From Heterodontus francisci (lineage: Eukaryota), in the NCBI RefSeq assembly GCF_036365525.1, contig NC_090372.1:33289437-33353436 (forward strand): a DNA stretch of 64,000 nucleotides, given 5' to 3'. Positions 3,902 through 64,000 of the stretch are shown piece after piece (position 1 is the first letter of the stretch; the number at the start of each line of letters is the position of its first letter). Below the pieces are notes generated by a model that was given only the letters and a program-made list of their open reading frames with translations, was not told where the DNA came from and ran no database searches. The position numbers and the translations under genes are program-made.

Positions 3902-5403
3902 CACTCTATCCCTTCCTCCAGTCTGAAAAACAGCCATTCACCACAGCTCTTTTTTCTATCCCTTAGCTAATTTTGTATCCATGCTGCTCCTGCCCCTTTT
4001 ATCGCATGGGCTTCAATTTTGCTTCCAAGCTGAATATGTGGTACTTTATAAAACGCCTTTTGAAAGTCCATATGCACATCAATTGCACTGCCCTCATCCA
4101 CCTTTTATGGTATCAAAAAACTCTATCAAGTTAGTCAAACACGATTTGCCCTTAACTTTAACTCATCACATGGTTTCAGGTGGGGTAAGGAGGGTATATA
4201 TTGCAGACCATTTGTTTTTTTCCTGTCTGTATGTTCATACTTGAGCACACAATTTAGATTGACTCCAGTGCAGTACTGAGGGAATGCTGCACTGTCAGAG
4301 GTGCTATCTTAATAGAGCTCTAAATATTGATGTCCAACAGGGGTACTTGCCTCTGATGAATGTGGCCCCATAATTAAGGTTAGGTGGGATATCTTAGGCT
4401 TGGCTGCAGCCCACCTAGCAGAAGGTACTCCAAAGATTAACTGTGAGGAAAACAAAAGGGAACCAATTCAGTTACTCCTCCCTAGTAAGTAGCTCAAGAA
4501 TCTTGTGTGTGAGACATGAATTAGAACACCATGGACAGACTATATATGTTGGCATACTTCGGGAGAGCTGGCTCTTGGTATCCATGAAACCAATGTCTCG
4601 GATATATATACCTGATATATGTAATATGTATATATAGGTGAATTGTTCCTTTGAGTGTCAGCTAATAAACATCAGTTCTATATGAACAACTGATGATTGA
4701 TATCAATCTTAGGTGTAGATAAGATGAGGTAGATAGGAACATCAAATATTAGGCAAATGCATGAAAAGTTCAGGGTGATGTCAAGGAATACTTCTTCACA
4801 CGAAGGGTAGCGGAAATCTGGAACCTTTTCCCCCAAAAAGTTCGAGACTAGGGTCAATTGACAACTTCAAACTAAGATCAATAGATCTTTGTCAGGAAAT
4901 GGTATTAACAGTTACAGAACCAAGGTGGGTGAATTGAGGAAGATACAGATCAGCCATGATATAATTGAATGGCAGAGCAGGCTCGAAGGGCTAAATGCCC
5001 TACTGTTGTTCCAATGTTGCTAAGGAGAAGAAGGAGCATGAGCTGCAAATATGGCCAACCAGGCAGCGGCGACAGGGAGAGCGAGGTGGCAGCTGGGTAA
5101 GTGAGTTTACAACTTATATAAACTTACCTTTTTGTTTTGGCGGTTTCTTTTTGCAGCGGCGACAGGGAGAGCGAGGTGGCAGCTGGGTAAGTAAGTCCTA
5201 TATATTTGGGCAGCGACTGAACCCAAGACACTACATTTGTAGTGTCTCCCACCCACCCTCCTCCTCTAACCAAAAAAAAGGACTCGGTGGTGTGCAGATA
5301 AGGTAAGGCTTTTTCTATTTATTTTTTTTCGTGTGATTGGTAAAAACTTTTCGTTCCTTTTTCATTTATCTAAGTTAAGACTAAGTTAAGCTTAAGATTA
5401 AAA

Positions 5404-6351
5404 ATGGCAGGAGATCTCAGACCCGTGTTATGCTCCTCTTGCTCAATGTGGGAGCTCAGGGACACGGCTGATGTCCCTGACTCCTTCACGTGCTGGAAGT
5501 GTGTCCAGCTGCAGCTCTTGTTAGACCGCATGACGGCTCTGGAGCTGCGGATGGACTCACTTTGGAGCATCCGCGATGCTGAGGAGGTCGTGGATAGCAC
5601 GTTTAGTGAATTGGTCACACCGCAGATTAGGATTGCTGAGGGAGAAAGGGAATGGGTGACCAAAAGGCAGAGAAAGAGCAGGAAGGCAGTGCAGGTGTCC
5701 CCTGCGGTCATCTCCCTCCAAAACAGGTATACCGTTTTGGATACTGTTGAGGGAGATGGCTCACCAGGGGAAGGCAGCAGTAGCCAGGTTCATGGCACCA
5801 TGGCTGGCTCTGCTGTTCGGAAGGGCGGGAAAAAGAGCGGAAGGGCTATAGTCATAGGGGATTCGATTGTAAGGGGAGTAGATAGGCGGTTCTGTGGTCG
5901 AGAACGAGACTCCTGAATGGTATGTTGCCTCCCAGGTGCACGGGTCAGGGATGTCTCAGATCGGCTGCAGAACATTCTGAAGGGGGAGGGTGAACAGCCA
6001 GTTGTCGTTGTGCACATAGGCACCGATGATATAGGTAAAAAACGCGATGAGGTCCTACAAGCAGAATTTAGGAAGTTAGGAGCCAAGTTAAAAAGTAGGA
6101 CCTCAGAAGTAGTAACCTCAGGATTGCTACCAGTGCCACATGATAGTCAGAGTAGAAATGAAAGAATAGTTAGGATGAATGCGTGGCTTGAGAGATGGTG
6201 CAGGAGGGAGGGGTTCAGATTTTTGGGACATTGGGACCAGTTCTGGGGGAGGTAGGACTATTACAAATTGGACGGTCTACACCTGGGCCGGACTGGAATC
6301 AATGTCCTTGGGGGTGCGTTTGCTAACGCTGTTGGGGAGGGTTTAAACTAA
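5404..6351 (+). pseudogene. CR1 ORF1: zinc finger/leucine zipper plus SGNH esterase; 2 premature stops
   Basis: CxxC...CxxC followed by a leucine-rich heptad; IVIGDSIVRG, VHIGTDD and DGLH motifs; in-frame stops TGA 5914 and TAG 6253; natural stop TAA 6349-6351. Confidence 0.88.
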
Positions 6352-9311
6352 TGTGGCAGGGGGATGGGAACCAAATGAGGAGGTCAGTGGACAGTAAGGA
6401 GGTAGTAACTAAAGCCTGTAAGGAACTAGATAATGAAGTCAGCGTGACTAAGGGAAAGAGTAGACAGGGAGCAGATGATGAACGCAAAGGGACTGGTGGT
6501 CTGAGGTGCATTTGTTTTAATGCAAGAAGTGTAGTAGGTAAGGCAGATGAACTTAGGGCTTGGATTAGTACCTGGGAGTATGATGTTATTGCTATTACTG
6601 AGACTTGGTTGAGGGAAGGGCATGATTGGCAACTAAATACCCCAGGATATCGATGCTTCAGGCGGGATAGAGAGGGAGGTAAAAGGGGTGGAGGAGTTGC
6701 ATTACTGGTCAAAGAGGATATCACAGCTCTGCTGAAGGAGGGCACTATGGAGGACTCGAGCAGTGAGGCAATATGGGCAGAACTCAGAAATAGGAAGGGT
6801 GCGGTAACTATGTTGGGGCTGTACTACAGGCCTCCCAACAGCGAGCGTGAAATAGAGGTACAAATATGTAAACAGATTATGGAAAGATGTAGGAGCAACA
6901 GGGTGATGGTGATAAGAGATTTTAATTTTCTCAACATTGACTGGGATTCACTTAGTGTTAGAGGTCTAGATGGAGCAGAATTTGTAAGGAGCATCCAGGA
7001 GGGTTTTCTAGAGCAGTTTGTAAATTGTCCAACTCGGGAAGGGGCCATACTGGACCTGGTGTTGGGGAATGAGCCCGGCCAGGTGGTTGAAGTTTCAGTA
7101 GGGGACTACTTTGGGAATAGTGATCACAATTCCGTAAGTTTTAGAATACTCATGGACAAAGACGAGAGTGGTCCTAAAGGAAGAGTGCTAAATTGGGGGA
7201 AGGCCAACTATACCAAAATTCGGCAGGAGCTGGGGAATGTAGATTGGGAGCAGCTGTTTGAAGGTAAATCCACATTTGATATGTGGGAGGCTTTTAAATA
7301 GAGGTTGATTAGCGTGCAGAAGAGACATGTTCCTGTAAAAATGAGGGATAGAAATGGCAAGATTAGGGAACCATGGATGACAGGTGAAATTGTGAGACTA
7401 GCTAAGAGGAAAAAGGAAGCATACATAAGGTCTAGGAGGCTGAAGAAAGACGAAGCTTTGAAAGAATATCGGGAATGTAGGACCAATCTGAAATGAGGAA
7501 TTAAGAGGGCTAAAAGGGGTCATGAAATATCTTTAGCAAACAGGGTTAAGGAAAATCCCAAAGCCTTTTAATAATATATAAGGAGCAAGAGGGTAACTAG
7601 AGAAAGGATTGGCCCACTCAAGGATAAAGGAGGAAAGTTATGCGTGGAGTCAGAGAAAATGGGTGAGATTCTAAACGAGTACTTTGCATCGGTATTCACC
7701 GAGGAGAGGGACATGATGGATGTTGAGGTTAGGGACAGATGTTTGATTACTCTAGGTCAAGTCGGCATAAGGAGGGAGGAAGTGTTGGGTATTCTAAAAG
7801 GCATTAAGGTGGACAAGTCCCCAGGTCCGGATGGGATCTATCCCAGGTTCCAGAGGGAAGCGAGAGAGGAAATAGCTGGGGCCTTAACAGATATCTTTGC
7901 AGCATCCTTAAACACGGGTGAGGTCCCAGAGGACTGGAGAATTGCTAATGTTGTCCCCTTGTTTAAGAAGGGTAGCAGGGATAATCCAGGTAATTATAGA
8001 CCGGTGAGCCTGACGTCAGTGGTAGGGAAGCTGCTGGAGAAGATACTGAGGGATAGGATCTATTCCCATTTGGAAGAAAATGGGCTTATCAGTGATAGGC
8101 AACATGGTTTTGTGCAGGGAAGGTCATGTCTTACCAACTTAATAGAATTCTTTGAGGAAGTGACAAAGTTGATTGATGAGGGAAGGGCTGTAGATGTCAT
8201 ATACATGGACTTCAGTAAGGCGTTTGATAAAGTTCCCCATGGTAGGCTGATGGAGAAAGTGAAGTCGCATGGGGTCCAGGGTGTACTAGCTAGATGGATA
8301 AAGAACTGGCTGGGCAACAGGAGACAGAGAGTAGCAGTGGAAGGGAGTTTCTCAAAATGGAGATGTGTGACCAGTGGTGTTCCACAGGGATCCGTGCTGG
8401 GACCACTGTTGTTTGTGATATACATAAATGATTTGGAGGAAAGTATAGGTGGTCTGATTAGCAAGTTTGCAGACGACACTAAGATTGGTGGAGTAGCAGA
8501 TAGTGAAGGGGACTGTCAGATAAAACAGCAGAATATAGATAGATTGGAGAGTTGGGCAGAGAAATGGCAGATGGAGTTCAATCAGGGCAAATGCGAGGTG
8601 ATGCATTTTGGAAGATCCAATTCAAGAGTGAACTATACAGTAAATGGAAAAGTCCTGGGGAAAATTGATGCACAGAGAGATTTGGGTGTTCAGGTCCATT
8701 GTTCCCTGAAGGTGGCAACGCAGGTCAATAGAGTGGTCAAGAAGGCATACGGCATGCTTTCCTTCATCGGACGGGGTATTGAGTACAAGGGTTGGCAGGT
8801 CATGTTACAGTTGTATAAGACTTTGGTTCGGCCACATTTGGAATACTGCGTGCAGTTCTGGTCGCCACATAACCAAAAGGATGTAGATGCTTTGGAGAGG
8901 GTGCAGAGGAGGTTCATCAGGATGTTGCCTGGTATGGAGGGCGCTAGCTATGAAGAGAGGTTGAGTAGATTAGGATTATTTTCATTAGAAAGACGGAGGT
9001 TGAGGGGGGACCTGATTGAGGTGTACAAAATCATGAGAGGTATAGACAGGGTGGATAGCAAGAAGCTTTTTCCCAGAGTGGGGGATTCAATTACTAGGAG
9101 TCACGAGTTCAAAGTGAGCGGGGAAAAGTTTAGAGGGGATATGCGTGGAAAGTTCTTTACGCAGAGGGTGGTGGGTGCCTGGAACGCGTTGCCAGCGGAG
9201 GTGGTAGACGCGGGCACGATAGCGTCTTTTAAGATGTATCCAGACAGATACATGAATGGGCAGGAAGCAAAGAGATACAGACCCTTAGAAAATAGCGACA
9301 TGTTTAGATAG
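6351..9311 (+). pseudogene. CR1 ORF2: APE endonuclease plus reverse transcriptase; in-frame stops
   Basis: NARS, ITETW, YRPP, DFN and SDH endonuclease motifs; NYRPVSLTS, DFSKAFD, GVPQGSVLGP and FADD RT motifs; stops at 7299, 7494 and 7569-7574, all in one frame. Confidence 0.93.
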
Positions 9312-12429: not shown

Positions 12430-13185
12430 TAAATAAAAACAGTGCGGGTAATACTCAGCAGGTCTGGCAGCATCTCTGGAGAGAGAAGCAGAGTTAACAT
12501 CTCCGGTCTGTGACCTTTCATCAGAACTGGCAAAGGTGAGAAATGCAATAGGTTTTAAGCAAGTGAAACAGGGGTGGGGGGAGGAAAGAGAACAAAAGGG
12601 AAGTTGTGTGTTAAGGCAAAGGGCAGGAGAGATTAAATGACAAAGATGTCATGAGACAAAGGCAAAGGGAGTACTAATGGTTGTGGTGAAAGACAAAGCA
12701 TTAGTCCAGATAGTGTTAATGACAGAATATGAACAGCTCTGTCCAAAAGCACAAAAATGAAAAACCAAGTTTATGACAGGTAACATGGTTAAAAAATAAG
12801 AGGCCAGTTATGCTCTGAAATTATTGAACTCAATGTTGAGTCCAGAAGGCTGTAGAGTACCTAACCGGAAGATGAGGTGCTGTTCCTTGAGCTTGCGTCG
12901 ATATTCACCGGAACACTGCAGCAGACCAAGAACAGAAATGTGGGCATGGGAGCAGGGTGGTGAATTGAAATGGCAAGCAACCGAAGCTCGGAGTCTTGCT
13001 TACAGACCGAGCGGAGGAATTCCGAAAAGCAGTCACCCAATCTGCGTTCAGTCTCCCCACCGTAGAGGAGATCGCATTGTGAGCATTGGATACAGTATAC
13101 TAAATTGAAAGTACAAGTAAATTGCTCCTTCACCTGGAAGGAGTATTTGGAGCCTTGGATAGTGAAGAGATAGGAGTACCAGGGC
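12430..13185 (-). mobile_element. Penelope-like element 3' fragment (GIY-YIG endonuclease plus terminal repeat)
   Basis: ORF 12861-13196 reads FTCTFNLVYCIQCSQCDLLYGGETERRLGDCFSE (GIY-YIG-like); homologous to 51240-52620. Confidence 0.85.
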
Positions 13186-22999: not shown

Positions 23000-25270
23000 C
23001 AGAGGGCACAGTTTTAGACTTAGTTTTAGAAAATGACAGGCAGATGGAAGGAATGGCAGTGGGAGAGATTTTGGTGGTTGAGATCATAATTCAGTAAGCT
23101 TTAACAATTATAGAAAAAGGACAAGGATAGAACAGGAGTTAGAGTTCTCAATTGGGGAAAGGCTAATTTTACTAAATGAGTGATTTTGCGAAATGGACTG
23201 GAAACAGCTACTTGAAGGTTAATCAGTATCAGAGCAGTGTGAGGCAAAGGGGTTCAGAGTATACATGTTCCCACAAAGAAAAAAAAAAGGGTGAAACGGC
23301 CAAATCTAGAGCCCCATGGACCTCAAAGATAAGGCAGAAAAGGAAAGTTTATGTCCGACACAGAGCTCAATGCTACAGAAAGCAGAGGGGAGTATTTAAG
23401 CAGAAGGGTAAAATCAAAAAGGAAATTAGGAACGCTAAGAGACAGCATGAAAGAATATTGGCAAGCAAAATCAAGGTGAACCCAATGATGTTTTATCAAT
23501 ACATTAAGAGTAAGAGGATAACTAAGGAAAGAGTAGAGCCCATAAAAGACCAAAAAGGTGTAGGGGCAGATGAGGTTGGTATTGTTCTCAATGAATACTT
23601 TGTGCCTGTCTTCACAAGAGGGGGACGATGCAGATATTGCAGTTAAGGAAGAGAGGTACGACGTATCGGATGTGATAAACATAGAAAGAGAGAAGCATTA
23701 ATGGGATTAGCATCCTTGAAAGTTGATAAAATCACTAGGGCTGGATGAAATGTACACCAGGCTGTTAAAAGCAGCTAGAGAGTAAAAAATAGCAGAAGGT
23801 CTGACCATCATTTTCCAGTCCTCACTGAATACAGGTGCGGTGTCGGAGGATTGGAAGACTACTAAAGTTGTACCTCTGTTTAAAAAGGGAGCAAGGGATA
23901 GACCAAATAATTACAGTCCAGTCAGTCTAACCTCAGTATTGGGCAAATTATTGGAATCAATTCTGAGACACAGGATAAACTGTCACATAGAAAGGACAGA
24001 TTAAATCAAGGACAGTCAGCAGGGATTTAAGGGAAGATCTTGTCTGACAAACTTGATCGAATTTTTTGAAGTATAACAAGGAAGATAGAGGAGTGTAGTG
24101 CAGTTGATGTGGTCTAGGTGGATTTTAGCAAGGCTTTTGACAAGGTCCTACATGGCAGACTGGCTAAAAAAAAAAAGCCCATGGGGGTCCAGGGAAATGC
24201 AACATGGTGGATACAAAATTGGCTCAGTGGCAGGAAACAAAGGGTAATTGCTGATGGGTGTTTCAGTGACTGGAGGGCTGCTTTTAGCAGCATTTCGCAG
24301 GGCTCAGTACTGGGTCCCCTGCTTTTTGTGGTATATATTAACAATTTGGATGTAAATGTAGGGGGCATGATCAAGAAGTCTGCAGACGACAAAGATTAGC
24401 CATGTGGTAGATAGCGAGGATAGCTGTAGGCTGCAGAAAATGTTGATGGTCTGATCAGAAAAAAGTGGCAAATGGAATTCAGCCCAGATAAATGTGAGGT
24501 GATGCATTTGGGGAGGTCAAACAAGGCAATGGAATACACGATTAATGGGAAAATACTAAGTGTAGAGGAAGTGAGGGACCTTAGTGAATGTCCACAGATC
24601 CCTGAAGGTAGCAAGACAGATCGATAAAGTGGTTAAAAAGGCATGTGGAATGCTCTCATTTATTAGTCAAGGTATAGAATACAAGAGCTTATGCTGGAAC
24701 TGTATAAATCATTGGTTAGGCCACAACTTGAATACTGTTTGCAGTTCTGGTCACCTCATTACAGAAAGGATGTAATTGCACTAGAGAGGGTACACAGAGG
24801 AGATTTACAAGGATGTTGCCGGGACTAGAAAATTGCAGTTACGAGGAAAGATTGGATAGGCTGGGGTTGTTCTCCTTGGAACAGAGAAGGCCAAGGGGAG
24901 ATCTGACTGAAACGTACAAAATTTTGAGGGACCTGGATAGAATGGAGGTGAAGGGCCCATTTACCTCAGAGGTCAGCGACTAAGGGGCATTGATTTAAAG
25001 TGATTGGTAGAAAGATTACAGGGGTGATGAGGGAAAGATTTTTCATCCAGAGGTTGCTGGGGGTGGGGGGCGGTTCTGGAACTCACTGCCTGAAAGGGTA
25101 GTTGAGACAGAAACCCTCAACTCATTCAAATAGGAGTCAGATATGCTCAAGTGCTGTAATCTACAGGGCTACAGACCAAATGTTGGAAGGTGGGATTAGA
25201 CTGGGTGCCTCATTCTTTGGCTGGCACAGACACAGTGGGCCAAGTGGCCTCTTTTTGTGCCATAAGCTAT
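23000..25270 (+). mobile_element. Degenerate CR1 LINE ORF2 in GMNN intron
   Basis: DFSKAFDKVLHGRL, WIQNWLSGRKQRV, QGSVLGPLLF; multiple frameshifts. Confidence 0.88.
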
Positions 25271-26329: not shown

Positions 26330-26505
26330 CAAAATAAAAACAAGAAATGCTGGAAACACTCAGCAGGTCTGGCAGCATCTGTGGAGAGAGAAGCAGAGTT
26401 AACGTTTCAGGTTAGTGACCCTTCAGAACTGGCAAATATTAGAAATGTAAAAAGGTTATAAGTAAAATGGGGGTGGGGCAAGAGATAACAAAGGAGAAGG
26501 TGTAG
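26330..26505 (-). mobile_element. Penelope-like terminal-repeat fragment
   Basis: Matches the terminal repeat at 12430-12600, 52480-52620 and 63610-63790. Confidence 0.75.
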
Positions 26506-31020: not shown

Positions 31021-31634
31021 AGCTTGTGACAACAAACTAAACGCTGCATAGACTTTACATATACAACAACGCACAGGATCAGGCCATTCAGCACAACCAG
31101 TCTGTGCCGGCGTTTATGCTCCATTGCAGCCTCCTCCCATTCTCATTTAACTCTCATAAGCAAAACCCTCTATTTATTCATTTCTCTCTCATGTGCTTGT
31201 CCAGCCTCCTCTTGACTTAAACCACTCCCTGAAAAAGTGAGTTCCACATACCCATCTACTTCTTCTGAATTACCTTTTTGGTTTCTTGGTGACTATCTCA
31301 TATTAACAGCCTCTAGCTTTGCTGGGTCACAACCCCCAACAAAAACACTGCCGGTGTACCAACACCACATTGACTGCAGCGGTCCAGGAAGGTGGATCAC
31401 CACCCCCTTCTCCAGGGCAATAAAAACTGGCCTTGCCAGTGATGCTCACATCCCAGGAATGAATAATAAAAAGCAAACTGCGATGGGAGCTCAGGAGCAG
31501 CCGCTTACTAAAACCTGGCCAAACTGTTATAGAGTTAGCAACCAAATCAATCTCCCCACTTCATTAAAAGCAAAATACTGCAGATGCTGGAAATCTGAAA
31601 TATTCTTGTTTTTATTCCTCACTTCATTAATTGA

Positions 31635-31905
31635 CCCACCCACATTCATACCCACAATTCATTTACTCCCCATCCACATTTGTAACCTCAATTCCTTTAC
31701 CCCACACCTATGCCCTCAATTCCCCTACTCCCCACTCACATGCATATCCTTAATTCCCCACCCACATTCATGCCCACAATTCATTTACTCCCCATCCACA
31801 TTTGTAACCTCAATTCCTTTACCCCACACCTATGCCCTCAATTCCCCTACTCCCCACTCACATGCATATCCTTAATTCCCCACCCACATTCATGCCCTCA
31901 ATTTC
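31635..31905. repeat. ~122-bp tandem repeat (~2.2 copies) built from ~30-bp C-rich subunits
   Basis: CCCACCCACATTCAT recurs at 31635, 31757 and 31879. Confidence 0.85.
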
Positions 31906-34946: not shown

Positions 34947-36290
34947 CTGCCAATCATTGAGTTCTTTGAAGGAGTAGCATGCGCTGTAGATAAAGGGGAA
35001 CCCATTGATGTACTTGGATTTCCAGAAGCATTTGACAAGGTGCCACATAAAAGGTTATTGCGCAAAGTAGAAGCTCATGGTGTAGGGGGTAACATAGCAT
35101 GGATAGAAGATTGGCTGGCTGGCTGGCAGACAACAGAGTATGCATAAATGGGTCCTTTTCTGATTGGCAGGATGTGACAAGTGGAGTCCTGCAGGGGTCT
35201 GTGCTGGGGCCTCAACTTTTTACAATTTATATCAATGACTTGGGTGAGGGGAGCGATGGCATGGTAGCTAAATTTGCAAATGACACAAAGATAGGTAGGA
35301 AAGTATGTTGTGAAGAATATGAAAGGAGCTGGTAACTGATATAGATAGATTGAGTGAGTAGGCAAAAATTGGCAGATGGACTATAATGTGGAAAAATGTG
35401 AAGTTGTTCACTTTGGCAGGAAAAATAAAAAAGCAGAGTATTTCTTAAATGGAGAATGACTGCAGAGTTCCGAGGTGCAGAGGGGTCTTGGTGTTCTAGT
35501 GCATGAGTCACAACAAGTTAGTATGCAGGTACAGCAAGTAATAAAGAAGGTTAATGGATGCTATCCTTTATTACGAGAGGAATTGAAAATAAAGGTAAGG
35601 ATGTTATGCTTACATTATACAGGGTGGTGTGACCACATCTCGAATACCGTGTGCAGTTTTGGTCTCCTTGTTTAAGGAAGGATGTAAATGTATTGGATAC
35701 AATTCAGAGGAGGTTTACTAGATTGATACCTGGAATGAGTGGGTTGTCTTCTGAGGAAAGGTTGGACAGACTGGGCTTATTTTCACTGAAGTTTAGAAGA
35801 GTGAGGGGAGACTTGATTGAAGTATAAAAGATCCTGAACGGTGTTGACAAGGTGGATGTGGAAAGGATGTTTCCTCTTGTGGGTGAGTCCAGAACTCGGG
35901 GGCACTGTTTGAAAATTAGGGGTCACCCATTTAAGACAGAGATGAGGAGAAATGTTTTCTCTGAGGGTTGTGCAACTTTGGAAGTCTCTGCCTCAGAAGG
36001 AGGTGGAAGTGGGGGTCATTGAATATTTTTAATGCGGAGTTAGATAGATTCTTGTTAGGCATGAAATCAAAGATTATCGGGGGTAGATGGGAATGTGGAA
36101 TTGGAGACACAGGTCATTGAATATTTTTAAGGTGGAGGTAGATAGATTCTTGTTAGGCATGGGAATCGAATTATCGGCGGTAGATGGGAGTGTGGAATTG
36201 GAGACACAAACCAATCAGCCATGATCTTATTGAATGGCAGAGCAGGCTCGAGGGGCCGAATGACCTACTTCTGCTCCTAGTTCGTATGTT
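34947..36290 (+). mobile_element. CR1 LINE 3' fragment with ~98-bp tandem duplication near its end
   Basis: DFQKAFDKVPH, SGVLQGSVLGPQLFTIYINDL, KFANDTK; block GGTCATTGAATATTTTTAA...GGAGACACA repeated at ~36014 and ~36112. Confidence 0.85.
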
Positions 36291-51011: not shown

Positions 51012-51239
51012 CTAGACAAAGGTGCAATTGTAATTCCATTAGAAATTAGTTTGCCTTTTAAAAATACTATTTTGCTAAATAACGAGTACTGTTCCTTATG
51101 AGACATTAAACTGAAGCCCTGTCTACCTTCTTGGATGGACATAAAAGATTTTATGGTAGTATTTTGACGATCTCCCAGCGACCTTGCTGTGCACACATTG
51201 GCTGCCGTGTTTCCCACAAAACAGTAACGACACTTCCGC

Positions 51240-52677
51240 CTGGAACTGGAAAACTCTATTAACTTTGCTTCTAATTTCCACCATTCTCTCACCTTTACAT
51301 GGTCCATCTCTGACACTTCCCTTCCCTTCCTCGACTTCTCTGTCTCCATCACTGGGGATAGGCTGTCTACTAATATTCATTATAAGCCCACCGACTCCTA
51401 CAGCTACCTGGACTACACTTCTTCCCACCCTGCCTCCTGTAAGGACTCCATTCCATTCTCCCAGTTTCTCTGTCTCCGACACATTGCCCTGATGATGCAA
51501 CCTTCCATGACAGTGCTTCTGATATGTCTTCCTTTTTCCTCAACTGAGAATTCCTCCCCACTGTGGTTAACAGGGCCCTCAACCGTGTCCGGCCCATTTC
51601 CCGCACTCATTCCATCTCCTCCCAGAACCGCGACAGGGTTCCCCTCGTCCTCACTTTGCACCCCATCAGCCTCCACATCCAAAGGATCATCCTCTGTCAT
51701 TTCCGCCACGTCCAGCGTGATGCCAATACCAAACGCTTCTTCCCCTCCCATCCCCTGTCAGCATTCCGAAGGGATCGTTCCCTTCGCGACACCCTGGTCC
51801 ACTCCTCCATTACCGCCACCACTTCGTCCCCTTCCCACGGCATCTTCCCCAGCAATCGCAGGAGGTGTAATACCTGCCCATTTACCTCCTCTCCTCACTA
51901 TTCAAGGCCCCAAACGCTCCTTTCAGGCGAAGCAGCAATTTACTTGTACTTCTTTCAATTTAGTATACTGTATTCGCTGCTTACAATGTGGTCTCCTCTA
52001 CACTGGGGAGACCAAACGCAGATTGGGTGACCGCTTTGCAAAACACCTCTGCTCAGTCCAAAAGCTTCCGGTTGCTGGCCATTTCAACACACCCCCCTGC
52101 TCTCACCACATCTCTGTCCTGGGATTGCTGCAGTGTTCCAGTGAACATCAACGCAAGCTTGAGGAACATCATTTACCAATTAGGCATGCTACAGCCTGCC
52201 AGACTGAACACTGAGTTCAGTAATTTCAGGGCATGACGGGGCCCCCCTTTTTATTATTTATTTGTTTATTTTAGTTTGTTTCTACTGTGCCTACTCACTG
52301 TTTTTTTCATGTTTGTGCTTGGGGCCAGGGCTGTTCATTTTTCTGTCAATTAACACCCTCGCTGTACTAACGCTTTGTCTTTCATCACACCATGAACATA
52401 CCTTTGCTCCATGACCTTCTGGTCAGTTATTCTCTGTGACCTTGTCCTATCAACACCTCTTTTATTATCTTTTTCCCCACCCCCACTTTACTTGCTTAAA
52501 ACCTATTACATTTCTAATATTTGCCAGCTCTGATGGGTCACTAACCTGAAACATTAACTCTGCTTTTCTCTCCACAGATGTTGCCAGACCTACTGAGTAT
52601 TTCCAGCATTTCTTGTTTTTATACCTGAAACATTAACTTTGTTTTTCTCTCCACCGATACTGGCAGACCTGCTGAGC
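51240..52677 (+). mobile_element. Penelope-like element (RT C-terminus, GIY-YIG endonuclease, partly duplicated terminal repeat)
   Basis: FLDFSVSITGDRLSTNIHYKPTDSYSYLDYTSSHP (RT end); CTSFNLVYCIRCLQCGLLYTGETKRRLGDRF (GIY-YIG); frameshifted. Confidence 0.88.
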
Positions 52678-53070
52678 ACCACCACCTGCAGTTTCCCCTC
52701 CAAGTTACACATCGGACTGAATTTAATGAACCCATCATGGGTCCCGGCAGCGGAACAGGAAATAGTTGCTGTCACCACTCGTCACGTGTGTGGCCAGCCC
52801 ACCGCAATCACGTGGTGGACAGCCAATTATCATAAAGGAGGCATGGGGCCCGTCCAATCATCTGACTGGGCGCGTGGTTCAAGGGACCGAATAATTGTCA
52901 GATGACTCCAGAGCAGGTGCTGACGCCACGTTTAAAGCCCTGCCAGACCTGCTTTCATTGCTGTCTTTGAGTCATTTGCTGATTCGTGTTCTTTGTTAAA
53001 CCGGTGTTGGCGTGATCCCTGGACCCCTTAACCCACCACCCCCCTCACACCCGGAGAAGGATAGTGCAGT

Positions 53071-54800
53071 ATGACAGAGGCAAGACACCAGGTGACCCTA
53101 CGGTTTAGCGATGCCTCTCTGGAGAATCTTCTCCAGGCTGCAAGGGAAAGGCATGAGGTCCTCTTCCCCAGTGATGGCAAGGACATGTCCTCCTGCCTGA
53201 CAAAGCAAGCCTGGATGGAAATTGCAGAAGAGGTAAGCAGCTGTGGGGTCACCGCCTCCTCCCCCCACCCAGCCCCCCGAACATGGGTCCAGTGCAGGAA
53301 GGGAGTCAACGACCTCCTTTGTTCTGCCAAGACGAGTGCTCCATATCTCTCCCCTTTTTGCAGATTGCATGTGGCTATGCAGGAGCAAGCGGGACATGGG
53401 CAGGGAGGCACCACAAAGTCGCTGGCAAAGGGAGTTAGATATCACCACATCCTGTCAAATGCATGGCTGCATCTTGACCAGATGACACCTTCTTTCACAT
53501 CTCATCCCTATTAACCCCCTGAGAGCTGACGTGAGGATGAACCATATAGGAAACTCCAGCAGAACTGTCCTGATGCTCTTTCGCCGATGTATGACTATCC
53601 CTCTTTCGACTTGCAGGACATGCTGTCCCATTAACAACAGGGAGACCTCGCAGACTGGTGGAAGAATTTCAGACATATGGCCACTCTCGACAGCTGAGAA
53701 TGAAGTACTGGAGTTGGTGGGGACCCAGGGTGGCCGCTCAATAGCGTATGGTGAGACTGGAGTCTCCATGCAAGAAGAGTGAGAATTGTCTTCAATTGAC
53801 ATACGGTTTACTTCTGGAGATCCACATCACACATGGATATCACGACAAGATCTGCATAGCCTAACTCACAGATGTCTGTGTTCTCTCATGCTGGTAGGCA
53901 TCCTCAGGTTACTCCAGCAGAAGGGGGACAGCAGTCAACCTCTGAGGAGGAGGAGCAGTTAGAGGATGCACCGTCACATGACTCTCCTGCACCTTACAGT
54001 GCAGATACTTTCACCTCAGTGGGTTTAGGCTCAGCTTTAGAATCAGGGTCACAAGCTGGTGACAGCGCTGCACACGCACCCGAGCAGCTGGCTAAGGCTG
54101 AGACAGCCGAGGCCTCTGACAGTCAGAGGACTGTGGGTGGCCAGTCCCATGCTGAGCCTCAAGCTCATGAGGAGTCTCTGGTGTCAACAGCACAAGGCAT
54201 GTTGGAGCTGCAGAGTGAGGTAAGGCAACATGTGACCGAGATGTCAGATGCAATGCGCAATCATGAGCGGACGATGGAGGAGTCCATCCGTGCCATGAGT
54301 GCTGCCATGTCTCAGGCATGTGAGCACATGGCTTGTTCCACGGAGAGCCAGATCCCACAGTTGCACACAGACATGCACACCATCGGCTTGGCCATGAGCT
54401 CAACGCAGCAGAGGCAAGGCGAGAGAAGAACGTAACACCTGGAGTCATCTCCAGCTCCTTGTCTTCTGGTCAACATAAGCCTTGAAAGGGAGGAGGAGAG
54501 GCTGACCACCACAGCTGGGTGCTTCTCTCAGGCTGTTCAGAGTGTGGATAGTGGCCCCTCAGTCCCTCCGCCAGTGAGCCCAGCTCCAGTAGCCGTGACG
54601 CCTGAGGAAAGTCTTACACCTGTGCAGGAAACCCTCAGGTAGCTGGGGCCCTCCAGGCCTCAGGCAGCTAGAGGACACTTGCCAAAGTCATCACAGGCCA
54701 AGGGGTAGCCTGATCAGCAGGCTGCCTCCAGCCCAGCTTCTTACACAGGAGTCACACCTCATGGAAGCACTCTAAAACATATAAAGACCACCTAGACACA
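53071..54800 (+). pseudogene. Harbinger Myb/SANT-like DNA-binding protein (spliced, degenerate)
   Basis: RFSDASLENLL...KQAWMEIAEEVS...RTWVQCRKGVNDL; second exon with SQTGG at ~53616-53778; third exon ORF 53872-54435. Confidence 0.78.
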
Positions 54801-55109
54801 CTTGGGGTTTCCTGAGTGTTTGACATTTGCCATTTGTTTTGTCATAAAGTTTTCTTGTTTTTGAAATTAACATTCATTGTGGAAAATGCTTATTCTTTCA
54901 TGCTTTAATCATGAGATGCTGACTTCACCCTTCTCCCTTAGTGGGCTGCTAGTGTAAGCACAGCCCTCCTTTGGTAAGTGTTTTACATGGGCCAAAGCAT
55001 ATAGTTAAGCTGGGGACTCGGCACAGAACCCAACAGAAAGGAGGTAACAGACAATGCACTGAGGTGAATCTTTATTGAATTCACTATGAAAGGCTATCAT
55101 GGTGGCTGG

Positions 55110-56200
55110 AAACAGGTCAGTTTGAGACTGTCTCCTTGCCTCCTTGGCCCGTCGCTCAATGTGACTGGCCTCCAGTGCAAGGGGTTTAACATCCAGTGCT
55201 GCCAGCTCATCACCCTCTTCCACATCCTCCTTGTTGGTCGAGGAGTGGTGATCAATCATGTCCTCTTCATGCAAGGCCTTCTCCCTCTGTCGTGCTAGAT
55301 TGTGCAGAGCACAGCAGAACACGACGAGATGCGAGACCCTCGCTGGGACATTCTGCAGGACTCCATCGGATCGATCCAGGCACCAGAATCTCAGCTTCAG
55401 CAGCCCAATAGCCTGCTCGATGGTCGCTCAGGTGGAGCCGTGGCAAGTGTTCTACCTCTCTTCTGCTGCAGTGCGAGGGTTCCTCACAGGCATGAGTAGC
55501 CATGTCTTTAATAGGTAGTCCTTGTCCCCAAGAACCCATCCCTTAAGGTGAGTGGGGAGAGTCTGAAAAGCTGTCGCACTTGGGATTGTCGAAGTATGTA
55601 GGAGTCGCGGCTGCTTCCCGGGAACCTGGTGCACACTTGTAAGAAATGCTTTCAGTGGTCGCAGACCAAATGAATTTTGATGGAATTAAAGCTGTTCCTG
55701 TTGATGAAGGCAGCTGGCTGGTCCATTGGAGCCTTGATGGCCACATTCTTACAATCTATCACACCTTGCACTTGGGGGAATCCAGCGATGGCCCCGAATC
55801 CGACGACCTTCTATGCTTGACTGTCAGGGTCAGTCATTAGCACACATAGCCACCAGTCCTCTTGAACAGGCATTGGTTACCTCCTTGATGCAGTGGTGGG
55901 CTGCAGCCTGGGAGACCCACGGATGTCCCTGGTGGAGCCTTGAAATGATCCAGATGCATAAACATTAAGTGCCACAGCAATCTTCAAGGGCATAGGGTGA
56001 CCACTGAATCCCATAGGTCGCAACTCGCCCTGCAGCATGGCACATAAGTCGGTGACAGCCTCCCCCGGGACCCAGAGAGTTTGCTGACAATGCCACTGAG
56101 ACATCTGGAGGTAGCTGATTCAGTCCAGTACATTCTCTGGCACAGGTGCATCCTTCTTGGCACGGTCGGCTGCTGCTGCTCTTGTTATGCAGCTTCACAG
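55110..56200 (-). pseudogene. Harbinger DDE transposase (HARBI1-like), frameshifted
   Basis: ALNVYASGSFQ, AGFPQVQGVIDC, PGSSRDS, WVLGDKDYLLKTWLLMP and IEQAIGLLKLRFWCL motifs occur in order. Confidence 0.88.
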
Positions 56201-60292: not shown

Positions 60293-60740
60293 TTAGTTTA
60301 GTTTAGAGATACAGCACTGAAACAGGCCCTTCGGCCCACCGAGCCTGTGCCGACCATCAACCACCCATTTATACTAATCCTACACTAATTCCATATTCCT
60401 ACCACATCCCCACCTGTCCCTATATTTCCCTACCACCTACCTATACTAGGGGCATGTGGGAGGAAACCGGAGCACCTGGAGGAAACCCACGCAGACACAG
60501 GGAGATAAAAGCAAAATACTGCGGATGCTGGAAATCTGAAATAAAAACAAGAAATGCTGGAACCACTCAGCAGGTCTGGCAGCATCTGTGGAAAGAGAAG
60601 CAGAGTTAACGTTTTGGGTCAGTGACCCTTCATCGGAACAGACACGGAGAACTTGCAAACTCCACACAGGCAGTACCCAGAATTGAACCCGGGTCTCTGG
60701 AGCTGTGAGGCTGCAGTGCTAACCACTGCGCCACTGTGCC
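60293..60740 (-). mobile_element. HE1-like SINE interrupted by a 133-bp Penelope terminal-repeat insertion
   Basis: Near-identical to 316-673 apart from an internal deletion and the insert at 60506-60638. Confidence 0.85.
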
Positions 60741-61299: not shown

Positions 61300-62660
61300 A
61301 GATGATTAGGAATAACATTATTGTTCTGGATGATTTGGATCATAGATTTCTTGATTTTGGACAGAGAGGGAATGAATGGAGTAAAGGGAGTGGAATTTCT
61401 GAAATGTGTACAGAACTCCCTGTTCCAGCAGCACATTTTAAGGGCTACAAGGGGGAGGTGTTGCTAGATGTGGTTATCAGTAATGGATTGGATCAGGTAG
61501 ATGAGCCAAATGTGGGAGTAGTGACCACAATATGATAAGGTTTAACATCCAATTATAAAATGAATAGTCATTATAAAAACTAAAGCCCCAGACTGGATTA
61601 GGGCAGATTTTACAAAGATGAGGAGTGAGCTAGGTGAGGTGAGGTAGAAGGAGACATTTGCACACAGGAATGAGAACAACAGTGGGATATTTTTTAAAAG
61701 GTACAGAATAAGTATTTTCCATTACAAATGATGGAAATTACTAGTAGTTTTGGGATGCCATGGATAAATAAAGTTGTTAGAAACCAATTAAAGTTGAAGA
61801 AGAGGCCTATAAGAAAAAATGATGAAAAGGGAGACCATGAGAAAAAGAATAGGTTAAGAAAAAGACATGGAGGGAGTATGAAGAAAACTATTTCAAAACA
61901 TCATAAAGAATGGTAACGTTTTTTAAAAATCAGTAAACAGGGAAATGAAGGAGGAAATTGACGACGCCCAAGATATTTTTCAAAGCTCTATTGAGTGTGG
62001 ATGTGTACTGGAGAACTAGACATCGGACAATGTAGTACCCCTTTTATCAGAGGGTATCAGAGCTAAGTACAGGCCAGTTAGTTTAAAGTCTGTGGTAGGG
62101 AAAATTTTTGTCTTTAGTTAAGGATAAAGTTTCAATGTATCTAAATAAAGAGAAAATAATTAGAAGTACCAACATGGATTTCAAAAGATATGCTCTTATT
62201 TAACAAACCTCATAGGATTCTTTGAGGAGGTAATAGTAGATGGGGAAATGCAGTGGCTGCTGGTGTATTTGAAGTTTAGAAAAGCCTTTAACAAGGTACC
62301 ACACGGTAGATTATTAGGGAAAATTAAGGGCATTGAATTAGGAGAAGACAACATACTATTAAAAATTGGTTAGAGGGGAGAAGAGAGAGAGTAGGAGTTA
62401 AGGACATTTTTTCAGAATGGTTGTAAGTAGGTAGTGATTTCCCCACAGGGTTCAGTTCTGGGGTCACATCTGTTCATTGTGTATGTCAATGATTTGGATA
62501 TAAGCTTAGAGGGAGAGGTGTCAAAATTTGCAGATCATACCAAAATAAGAGAAATAGTTAATTTATTAGAAGACCAAAGGAAACCGCAAAGGAATATTGC
62601 TAAGATTGGGCAATAGGTTAAAAGGTGGCAGGAGGAATTCAGTGTTAGTAAATTTGAGGT
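61300..62660 (+). mobile_element. Old CR1 LINE ORF2 fragment
   Basis: YRPVSL, KAFNKVPHGRL, PQGSVLGSHLFIVYVNDLD, KFADHTK. Confidence 0.75.
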
Positions 62661-63232: not shown

Positions 63233-63609
63233 TTGTGGTCAAAATTCAGGAGCATCAGGCTGAAGTGCTGCCAAAAAATTGAGGAGTGTCCCCTTTAATT
63301 AGTGGAACAGGGGCTGTAACCTTTCACAGTCCAAATAAATATGAAAACTTGCCAGCATGCCGCAGAAAGGGAGGTGCAGCGAAGGTATCGTGTTCGAATG
63401 AGTGTGAGCAGGGATCACAACAGCTCCAAGCTAAAAATGTCAGTCCCAGTGAGGGACATTTGAAAGTTTGTGCTATGCTGCAGTCTCCCTGCTGATGGGG
63501 CTAGAGAGTGACCGGAAACCAGAGACTACCCCGCCCTCCTCCTCCAATCACCTTGGTAATGCTGAGAGTGCGCAGTCCATGTGTCCGGAGGAGGGGGATG
63601 GAATCGGAA

Positions 63610-64000
63610 TAAAACAAAAACAAGAAATGCTGGAAATACTCAGCAGGTCTGGCAACATCTGTGGAGAGAGAAGCAGAGTTAATATTTCAGGTCAGTGTCC
63701 CTTCATCAGAACTGGCAAATATTAGAAATGTAATAGGTTTTAAGCAAGTAAAGCGGGAGTGGGGCAAGAGATAACAAAACGGAAAGTGTTGATAGGCCAA
63801 GGTCACAGAGAATAACTGACCAGAAGGTCATGGAGCAAAGGCAAATGGTATGTTAATGGTGTGGTGAAATACAAAGCGTTAGTACAGAGAGGGTGTTAAT
63901 TGATGGAAAAATGAACAGCTCTGGCCCCAAGCACAAACATGAAAAAAAACAGTGGGTAGGCACAGTAGAAACAAACTAAACAAACTAAAATAAAATTAAC
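63610..64000 (-). mobile_element. Penelope-like element 3' end (runs off the window)
   Basis: Reverse complement of 52250-52620. Confidence 0.82.
63677..63713 (-). ncRNA. Minimal type I hammerhead ribozyme motif
   Basis: Minus strand reads AGTT CTGATGA A GGGAC ACT GACCT GAAA TA TT AACT: stem I AGUU/AACU, core CUGAUGA and GAAA, stem II hairpin, palindromic loopless helix III. Confidence 0.62.

What the first reader, a model, noticed from the sequence alone, without database searches (positions are those of the whole stretch)
63677..63713. Minimal hammerhead ribozyme in Penelope terminal repeats (five copies in the window)
Seen: the Penelope terminal repeat has the by-eye consensus AGTT-CTGATGA-A-GGGTC-ACT-GACCY-GAAA-CG-TT-AACT. 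Copies lie at 12492-12528(-), 26397-26430(-), 52526-52559(+), 60604-60639(-) and 63677-63713(-). Only this last copy keeps both catalytic boxes, and its helix III stays palindromic (ATAT instead of ACGT). Established: Penelope-like elements carry minimal type I hammerheads whose loopless palindromic helix III implies dimeric folding, and an extra A after CUGAUGA is a tolerated variant. Inference: this shark family self-cleaves after the U17 of GUU/AUU. The plus-strand copy in ACOT13 intron 1 is antisense to that gene, while the 26397 copy is sense to GMNN pre-mRNA and has lost 3 core nucleotides.
Basis: partly seen in the sequence, partly recalled or inferred. Interest (0 to 1): 0.7.

Follow-up and report, generated by a model that had tools for sequence, protein, structure and literature searches.

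The report
Worn Penelope retrotransposon hammerhead copies
The five motifs are real but damaged copies of the tiny hammerhead self-cutting RNA motif already known from Penelope-like jumping genes, and short copies elsewhere in this genome begin at the motif's first letters rather than at its predicted cut site, so the RNA that gets copied into DNA is likely uncut.

Summary
Observation confirmed, interpretation partly supported. The five motifs exist and sit in the terminal repeat of a Neptune-type Penelope-like element: a full copy has a 924-aa RT/GIY-YIG frame between two motifs 3.3 kb apart. About 390,000 copies are extrapolated from a 1.4-Mb sample. This is the published minimal hammerhead of Penelope repeats.

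Corrections: no window copy passes a hammerhead descriptor; 63677 keeps both boxes but has an A·A mismatch in helix II. Its ATAT is best read as CpG decay (ACGT 38, ATGT 17, ACAT 9, ATAT 1 of 75). The youngest subfamily has C4, not U4 (56 of 60). Among 79 young copies, 24 start at +1 to +5 of the motif and none at the predicted cut, about 30 bases behind a TATA-like box. The motif is therefore likely the first 37 bases of the transcript, weak or protein-dependent, and mostly uncut when copied. Cleavage itself is untested. The scan noted this family and this reading before, on other DNA of this and other genomes.

The parts
63677..63713 (-). Minimal hammerhead motif, middle-aged class (U4, G10.1·U11.1). 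Both boxes intact; A·A mismatch in helix II; helix III ATAT; predicted cut between 63681 and 63680
63612..64000 (-). 3' untranslated part and terminal repeat of a 5'-truncated element of about 1.35 kb that runs about 945 bases past the window end; intergenic between the ACOT13-like and TDP2-like genes
63738..63743 (-). TATA-like box about 30 bases upstream of motif +1 (inferred promoter element)
60505..60639 (-). Young short copy (95.6% to L076): starts at motif +2, ends at +136 (long tail), sits inside another repeat. Motif 60604-60639 has subfamily C4 and a G12-to-A lesion
51233..52622 (+). 5'-truncated, frameshifted element (RT thumb, linker, GIY-YIG remnant, terminal repeat) in intron 1 of the ACOT13-like gene, antisense
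52526..52559 (+). Motif with 3-base core deletion, helix I and II mismatches, helix III ACAT
52623..52676 (+). Partial sixth copy (motif +22 to +75) directly behind the 52526 copy
26332..26505 (-). Terminal-repeat fragment in a geminin intron, sense; motif 26397-26430 has a 3-base core deletion and a helix II mismatch
12433..13176 (-). Old-class truncated element (A10.1 class); motif 12492-12528 has GAGA for GAAA, a broken 10.1-11.1 pair and helix III ATGT
31557..31600 (-). Tail-only fragment (+100 to +143) of the same family, no motif

Best explanation
The motifs are mutated copies of the minimal type I hammerhead in the terminal repeat of a very abundant Neptune-type Penelope-like retrotransposon; the motif likely forms the first 37 bases of the element's transcript, is likely a weak ribozyme that needs a dimer partner or the element's protein, and is likely uncut in most RNAs that are reverse-transcribed. 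Shown: element anatomy, copy numbers, subfamily states, where copies begin and end. Inferred: transcription starts at motif +1, behind a TATA-like box at about -30 and an initiator-like sequence. The element's RT starts at one of two tail sites (+98 to +103, +135 to +140) and either runs off the RNA 5' end, giving 100-140-base stubs such as 60505-60639, or copies from the downstream repeat, giving longer truncated copies such as the other four. Cleavage after U17 would need two motifs paired through ACGU and is likely slow (4-bp helix I, U17, and either U4C or a non-canonical 10.1-11.1 pair). After insertion the copies decay neutrally, fastest at CpG; all five window copies are likely inactive.
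For: L076: truncated copy + repeat + 924-aa frame + repeat + tail; RVT_1 E 4e-6 and GIY-YIG E 0.0017 (both under Pfam's cut-off), DKG and YIDD motifs, C-x4-C-x2-C linker. The motif lies behind the frame in 14 of 14 long-frame loci and on both sides in 4 of 14. Core letters G5, A6, G8, A9, G12-A15.1, U16.1, U17 are 92-100% conserved across three subfamilies while N7, the loop and 10.1/11.1 vary; 10.1-11.1 is A-U 25, G-C 22, G·U 13 of 62 and never A·C. 79 young copies anchored downstream of the motif: 24 start at +1 to +5, 0 at +31 to +37, 27 run more than 280 bases upstream; 3' ends fall in two clusters; enrichment holds for the 24 short copies without an inverted arm (15 at +1 to +5). G precedes 7 of 13 exact +1 starts, a weak cap-like sign. 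TATAA or TAAAA at about -30 in 19 of 26 long copies (counted by eye). Literature agrees: low in vitro activity of minimal motifs even as dimers (PMC4209133); protein-assisted cleavage, uncut RNA the main substrate, no reads ending at the cut in Anolis (PMC11167929); U4C lowers activity (PMC3088659).
Against: Absence at the cut is modest for solo copies alone (0 of 24, p 0.08). In the unselected sample 8 of 93 copies start at +31 to +37; three share an unrelated flank and two are arms of inverted pairs, one of them starting exactly at +34. Covariation rests on about two subfamily changes: covariation score 0.194 against 0.165 shuffled (7 of 500), other measures not above shuffles; RNAalifold does not recover the hammerhead fold. 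The 79 young copies all come from the first 11 Mb of contig C1 and include both arms of inverted pairs.
Confidence: 0.75

Rival explanations
1. One reading: the family is an efficient dimeric ribozyme that routinely cuts after U17, releasing unit-length RNA and cutting host pre-mRNA when sense.
For: Core letters and the ACGU palindrome are kept across three subfamilies; paired motifs lie 3.3 kb apart in 4 of 14 long-frame loci; one inverted arm starts exactly at +34 (L170). Cut RNA might simply be a poor template, which would hide cleavage from the DNA record.
Against: 0 of 79 young copies start at the cut. No copy among 53 has both U4 and G10.1-C11.1. Predicted dimer energy favours a helix II-helix II duplex (-24.8) over the helix I/III-swapped form (-13.7 kcal/mol). 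Published minimal motifs are slow (PMC4209133).
Confidence: 0.12
2. The motif is catalytically dead, at least in the young C4 subfamily, and is kept for another job at the RNA start: core promoter sequence, protein binding, or fold-back priming of the cDNA end.
For: C4 is fixed in the most successful recent subfamily (56 of 60; 48,716 exact matches to its flank). The motif overlaps the inferred start site. Many junctions at +1 to +13 are head-to-head fold-backs. Naiad elements spread without canonical hammerheads (PMC8557442, passages).
Against: All other catalytic letters stay fixed while neighbouring loop and N7 letters change, as expected for a ribozyme under selection. U4C viroid variants keep enough activity in vivo (PMC3088659, passage). 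The Anolis motif does cleave with protein (PMC11167929).
Confidence: 0.25
3. The pile-up of copy starts at +1 to +5 comes from a 3' splice site (AG at +1,+2), as in Drosophila Penelope where the intron end meets helix I, not from a transcription start.
For: The upstream sequence is pyrimidine-rich with a branch-point-like stretch and ends in CAG; PMC4209133 describes this overlap in D. virilis.
Against: Copies starting at +1 to +4 share no upstream exon; 18 of the 49 listed starts at +1 to +4 begin at +3 without the G that an exon end would usually supply; no GT..AG joint to +3 among the joints shown from RNA contigs (19 joints were not shown).
Confidence: 0.07
4. Chance resemblance of a repeat to a hammerhead.
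For: Rfam reports no hammerhead.
Against: Full minimal-hammerhead anatomy at the expected place in a Penelope repeat; descriptor 16 hits against 0 in shuffles.
Confidence: 0.01

Closest known systems
Minimal hammerheads (min-HHR) in the terminal repeats of metazoan Penelope-like elements (Cervera and De la Pena 2014, PMC4209133; parts 1-2 of 4 read, 2 of 3 supplement files searched)
   Same: Type I, 4-bp helix I, extra base between 9 and 10.1, palindromic 15.2-16.2 without loop 3, located in both repeats, mostly solo copies, nearby pairs on opposite strands; reported for Neptune, Poseidon and Xena elements of fishes.
   Different: Here U17 is fixed, the young subfamily has C4, and the 'highly conserved' G10.1-C11.1 is G·U or A-U in 38 of 62 sampled copies. 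No shark entry was found in the supplement files searched (file 1, not searchable, may hold such variants).
Neptune clade of endonuclease-positive Penelope-like elements (Craig et al. 2021, PMC8557442; passages read)
   Same: Single RT-then-GIY-YIG frame, CX2-5CxxC linker, partial tandems, inverted 5'-truncated neighbours, optional 30-40-base tail.
   Different: Clade assigned by the linker only; Nematis shares it and no tree was built.
Poseidon element PAc of Anolis carolinensis (Frangieh et al. 2024, PMC11167929; passages and the second part of the main text read)
   Same: Two RT start sites defining the tail; hammerhead not needed for insertion; uncut RNA the main template.
   Different: In PAc the frame starts inside stem II; here the main frame starts about 170 bases after motif +1, and the motif lies at the inferred RNA start.
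Non-LTR retrozymes of animals (bioRxiv 10.64898/2026.07.22.740005; part 1 of 5 and passages read, supplements closed)
   Same: Derived from Penelope repeats, type I hammerheads, found in one chondrichthyan genome; depleted in introns in Xenopus.
   Different: Retrozymes are tandem arrays; the window copies are dispersed truncated elements and stubs.

Membership tests
Endonuclease-positive Penelope-like element | Single frame with RT followed by GIY-YIG endonuclease | tested here: met
   924-aa frame in L075 and L076, RVT_1 and GIY-YIG hits under cut-off but in order; window copy 51233-52276 is 87% identical to it
Endonuclease-positive Penelope-like element | Partial tandem forming direct terminal repeats, inverted truncated neighbours, optional 30-40-base tail | tested here: met
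   3' ends at +97 to +111 (39 of 79, mostly +98 to +103) or +133 to +140 (38 of 79) by the printed tally; inverted junctions listed
Neptune clade | CX2-5CxxC linker between RT and endonuclease | tested here: met
   C-x4-C-x2-C in P0001
Neptune clade | RT phylogeny separating Neptune from Nematis | not tested
   no reference set was fetched
Minimal type I hammerhead of Penelope repeats | CUGANGA and GAAA boxes with NUH site | tested here: inconclusive
   Met in the two older classes; the young class has C4. GUU obeys NUH (PMC3138052, passages). In the window only 63677 keeps both boxes
Minimal type I hammerhead of Penelope repeats | Helix I, helix II and an extra base between 9 and 10.1 | tested here: met
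   90.6% of cells paired in 28 distinct rows; slid controls 6-49%; extra A in 57 of 58. Broken in all five window copies' helix II or core
Minimal type I hammerhead of Penelope repeats | Conserved G10.1-C11.1 pair | tested here: inconclusive
   G-C in 22 of 62, A-U 25, G·U 13: paired, canonical only in the young class
Minimal type I hammerhead of Penelope repeats | Palindromic loopless helix III | tested here: met
   ACGT is the family state (38 of 75; 26 others are CpG-decay forms)
Minimal type I hammerhead of Penelope repeats | Mg2+-dependent self-cleavage as a dimer | not testable with these tools
   needs a bench assay
Rfam hammerhead families | Match to a curated covariance model | tested here: not met
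   none in the window or in an intact young repeat
Non-LTR retrozyme | Tandem units each with an intact hammerhead | tested here: not met
   dispersed copies only; one partial head-to-tail piece at 52623

The most novel reading that the evidence does not exclude
The hammerhead is the capped first 37 bases of the element's RNA and is kept deliberately slow: each successive subfamily carries exactly one weakening feature (U4 with A-U or G·U at 10.1-11.1, then C4 with G-C), and positions 4 and 11.1 change together as alternative partners of base 10.1, giving an on/off fold that the element's protein would switch, so that cutting decaps the RNA only at a chosen step while uncut RNA is the template.
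Probability: 0.2. Interest if true: 0.65.

Novelty: new member of a known kind. Interest (0 to 1): 0.3.

Why it matters
The useful part is the family's fossil record: tens of thousands of young, near-identical copies map where the template RNA began and ended, which bears on the open question of what Penelope hammerheads do. An intact natural element (L075, L076) with a C4/U17 core gives a direct test of whether such a motif cuts, and whether the element's protein is needed.

Tried and rejected
Rfam scans: no hammerhead among 8 matches in the window or 1 match in L076; uninformative for loopless motifs. RNAalifold on 38 full motifs gave only a 3-pair hairpin at -0.55 kcal/mol. ATAT among the best genome hits to the 63677 copy was rejected as evidence because those hits were chosen by likeness to that copy. 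RNA contigs of four organisms (RNA status only guessed) show the repeat is present, with C4 the majority by summed depth in organisms A, B and C and no change at N17 above 4%, but cannot show starts, ends or expression; no splice joint was seen among those shown. Three copies starting near the cut share an unrelated flank; I guessed a DNA-transposon insertion there, but the check found only 3 occurrences of that flank and was inconclusive. One search used a mis-set anchor (22 copies) and was replaced. One search timed out. Lunse et al. (dimer cleavage of small Penelope hammerheads) could not be read; I know it only from a review's citation (PMC6765202, passages). Paper searches for Penelope with shark and Neptune, Penelope with 'shark genome', hammerhead ribozyme with shark, and Penelope-like, hammerhead, capped, transcription start listed no paper on this family; subscription journals are largely not held. 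An intron-orientation test was not possible: no annotation, and the window's n is 2 intronic copies.

Full report
Numbering: +1 is the A at the start of helix I's 5' strand (window 63713 for the named copy); the motif spans +1 to +37 and the predicted cut lies between +33 (U17) and +34. Hammerhead position names follow the standard numbering, recalled and as used in PMC4209133.

1. Observation. The five motifs are at the stated places. Only 63677-63713 keeps CUGANGA and GAAA. Lesions: 12492 has GAGA for GAAA, a broken closing pair and ATGT; 26397 and 52526 each lack 3 core bases and have a helix II mismatch; 60604 has G12 to A; 63677 has an A·A mismatch in helix II, a G·U closing pair and ATAT. 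None passes a descriptor that asks for both boxes, a palindromic 15.2-16.2, a 4-bp helix I and at least 4 pairs in helix II; the +1 to +37 fold of 63677 does not form either helix. A partial sixth copy follows 52526 and a tail-only piece lies at 31557-31600.

2. What the repeat is. Upstream of 52526 is a broken frame with a GIY-YIG remnant (E 0.0034). A protein search of the genome (40,239 candidates, 150 scored) listed open frames up to 924 aa. I fetched 14 loci with the longest frames: all 14 have the motif behind the frame, 4 have it on both sides about 3.3 kb apart. L076 is a textbook partial tandem: truncated copy, repeat, 924-aa frame with DKG, YIDD, C-x4-C-x2-C linker and GIY-YIG, repeat, tail. 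The linker marks Neptune or Nematis (PMC8557442, passages). The window copies are 5'-truncated members; the named copy is about 1.35 kb and runs past the window end. Host genes, named from Pfam hits and recalled motifs and synteny: geminin (-), a DUF4566 gene (+), ACOT13-like (-), and TDP2-like (+) starting about 1.1 kb beyond the window. So 26397 is sense in a geminin intron, 52526 antisense in ACOT13 intron 1, and 60604 and 63677 are intergenic. The genome is a 6.0-Gb vertebrate one; 'shark' was not tested.

3. Abundance and subfamilies. The intact U4 form has 12,820 exact matches, control 0; a flank of the young class has 48,716. 140 evenly spaced 10-kb stretches (1.4 Mb) held 91 distinct copies, about 390,000 if extrapolated. 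Three classes follow the 10.1-11.1 pair: G-C (flank identity within class 94.7%, n 21), G·U (91.1%, n 12), A-U (84.3%, n 21), so A-U is oldest and G-C youngest. The G-C class carries C4: 13 of 14 long-frame loci, 56 of 60 anchored young copies. U4 with G-C was 0 of 53 in the sample and rare elsewhere (1 of 60; a few of the 100 rows listed), as CpG decay of C4 would give. Across classes the catalytic letters stay at 92-100% while N7 (50%), two loop letters (79%, 61%), position 4 and 10.1/11.1 vary. This is the pattern of a selected ribozyme, but formal covariation is thin: two helix II pairs change on both sides, score 0.194 against 0.165 (7 of 500 shuffles), the other measures within the shuffles.

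4. ATAT. Helix III reads ACGT 38, ATGT 17, ACAT 9, ATAT 1, other 10 of 75. The CpG decays freely after insertion and usually breaks the palindrome. ATAT is a double hit, not a compensatory change.

5. Where copies begin. 79 young copies were picked by an anchor wholly downstream of the motif (70 loci among the first places listed, all in the first 11 Mb of contig C1; two places already held and a few second hits were not refetched). 27 run more than 280 bases upstream, 3 stop between, and 49 start within 30 bases upstream of +1 or inside the motif; of these 24 start at +1 to +5 and none at +31 to +37 (p 2e-15 and 0.006 against a uniform spread, though inverted pairs are counted twice; for the 24 without an inverted arm, 15 and 0, p 4e-12 and 0.08). 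The unselected sample agrees less sharply: 21 of 93 start from 2 bases upstream to +4, 8 of 93 at +31 to +37. +1 sits in an initiator-like sequence (consensus recalled), about 30 bases behind TATAA or TAAAA in 19 of 26 long copies, and G precedes 7 of 13 exact +1 starts. The TATA lead came from earlier scan notes. 3' ends cluster at +98 to +103 and +135 to +140, the known tail. Window copy 60505-60639 is such a stub (+2 to +136).

6. Mechanism. Most likely the transcript starts at +1; RT begins at a tail site and, when it uses the site near the RNA's 5' end, runs off after 100-140 bases, often folding back to give head-to-head pairs. Since these cDNAs contain the whole motif, their templates were uncut. 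This matches the Anolis element, where cleavage needs the protein, is not needed for insertion, and leaves no read ends (PMC11167929). The motif has several weakening features: 4-bp helix I, no loop 3, U17 (GUC and GUA are the fast natural triplets, PMC3138052), and U4C (lowers activity, PMC3088659) or a non-canonical closing pair. Energy models favour a helix II duplex over the swapped dimer, a rough result since they cannot score the catalytic core. One unexplained point: base 4 can pair with base 10.1 in 38 of 38 aligned motifs (U-A 15, C-G 13, U·G 10), so 4 and 11.1 track each other as alternative partners; this rests on one or two ancestral changes and may be coincidence.

7. Against this reading. 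No RNA end and no cleavage was observed; contigs cannot show them. Cut RNA could exist and simply not be copied. A splice acceptor at +1,+2 is not excluded. Earlier scan notes report a few percent of copies starting at the cut in this and other genomes; I found 0 of 79 young copies and one exact inverted-arm case in the unselected sample.

8. Novelty. Minimal hammerheads in Penelope repeats of fishes, Neptune included, are published (PMC4209133). I found no paper on this family or on the motif lying at the transcript start in the searches named under Tried and rejected; unread supplements and the unavailable Lunse et al. paper may cover C4 or U17 variants. The scan's own notes hold the same reading many times (1136 findings with these words; 79 in this genome). 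Verdict: a new member of a known kind, window copies inactive relics, interest 0.3.

Noticed in passing
window 5374-9308 (+): Long LINE-type (CR1-like by recall) element with endonuclease and RT frames; RVT_1 E 8e-37 at 7575-9308. Older relatives near 23200-24800, 35200-35900 and 62000-62500.
   Followed up: partly
window 53065-55427: Myb/SANT-like frame (+, E 1.7e-5) and DDE_Tnp_4 remnant (-, E 4e-5): a Harbinger-type DNA transposon (name recalled) in ACOT13 intron 1 directly behind the 52526 copy.
   Followed up: partly
L076 3059-3170; window 63560-63676 (-): Downstream of the motif lie three acceptor-like stretches (pyrimidine run plus AG) and an upstream AUG that is in frame with the main frame but closed by a stop; in L078 that stop is absent and the frame opens from the upstream AUG.
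   Followed up: no
L122, L138, L222, L237/L238, L249, L265, L282, L288 and others: Frequent 200-280-base head-to-head pairs of stubs whose junctions use small self-complementary stretches of the motif (around +3 to +10, helix II, or helix I), suggesting fold-back priming of the cDNA end.
   Followed up: partly
L130:4837, L149:1297, L171:1866: Three copies that start at +32 to +34 share a similar 12-14-base upstream flank from another repeat; cause not resolved.
   Followed up: partly
window 60297-60740 and 323-669: The young stub 60505-60639 interrupts a short interspersed repeat that also occurs intact near 323-669; flanks look like an imperfect 11-13-base target duplication.
   Followed up: partly
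motif +28 to +33: The overlapping palindromes around the cut (A14 to U17, and G16.2 to C1.3) could allow inactive dimers; the same stretch lies at the spacing of a downstream promoter element, and resembles the one named for Drosophila Penelope (PMC2377424, passages).
   Followed up: no
window 31635-31878: Near-perfect 122-base tandem duplication (99%) between the geminin and DUF4566 promoters.
   Followed up: no
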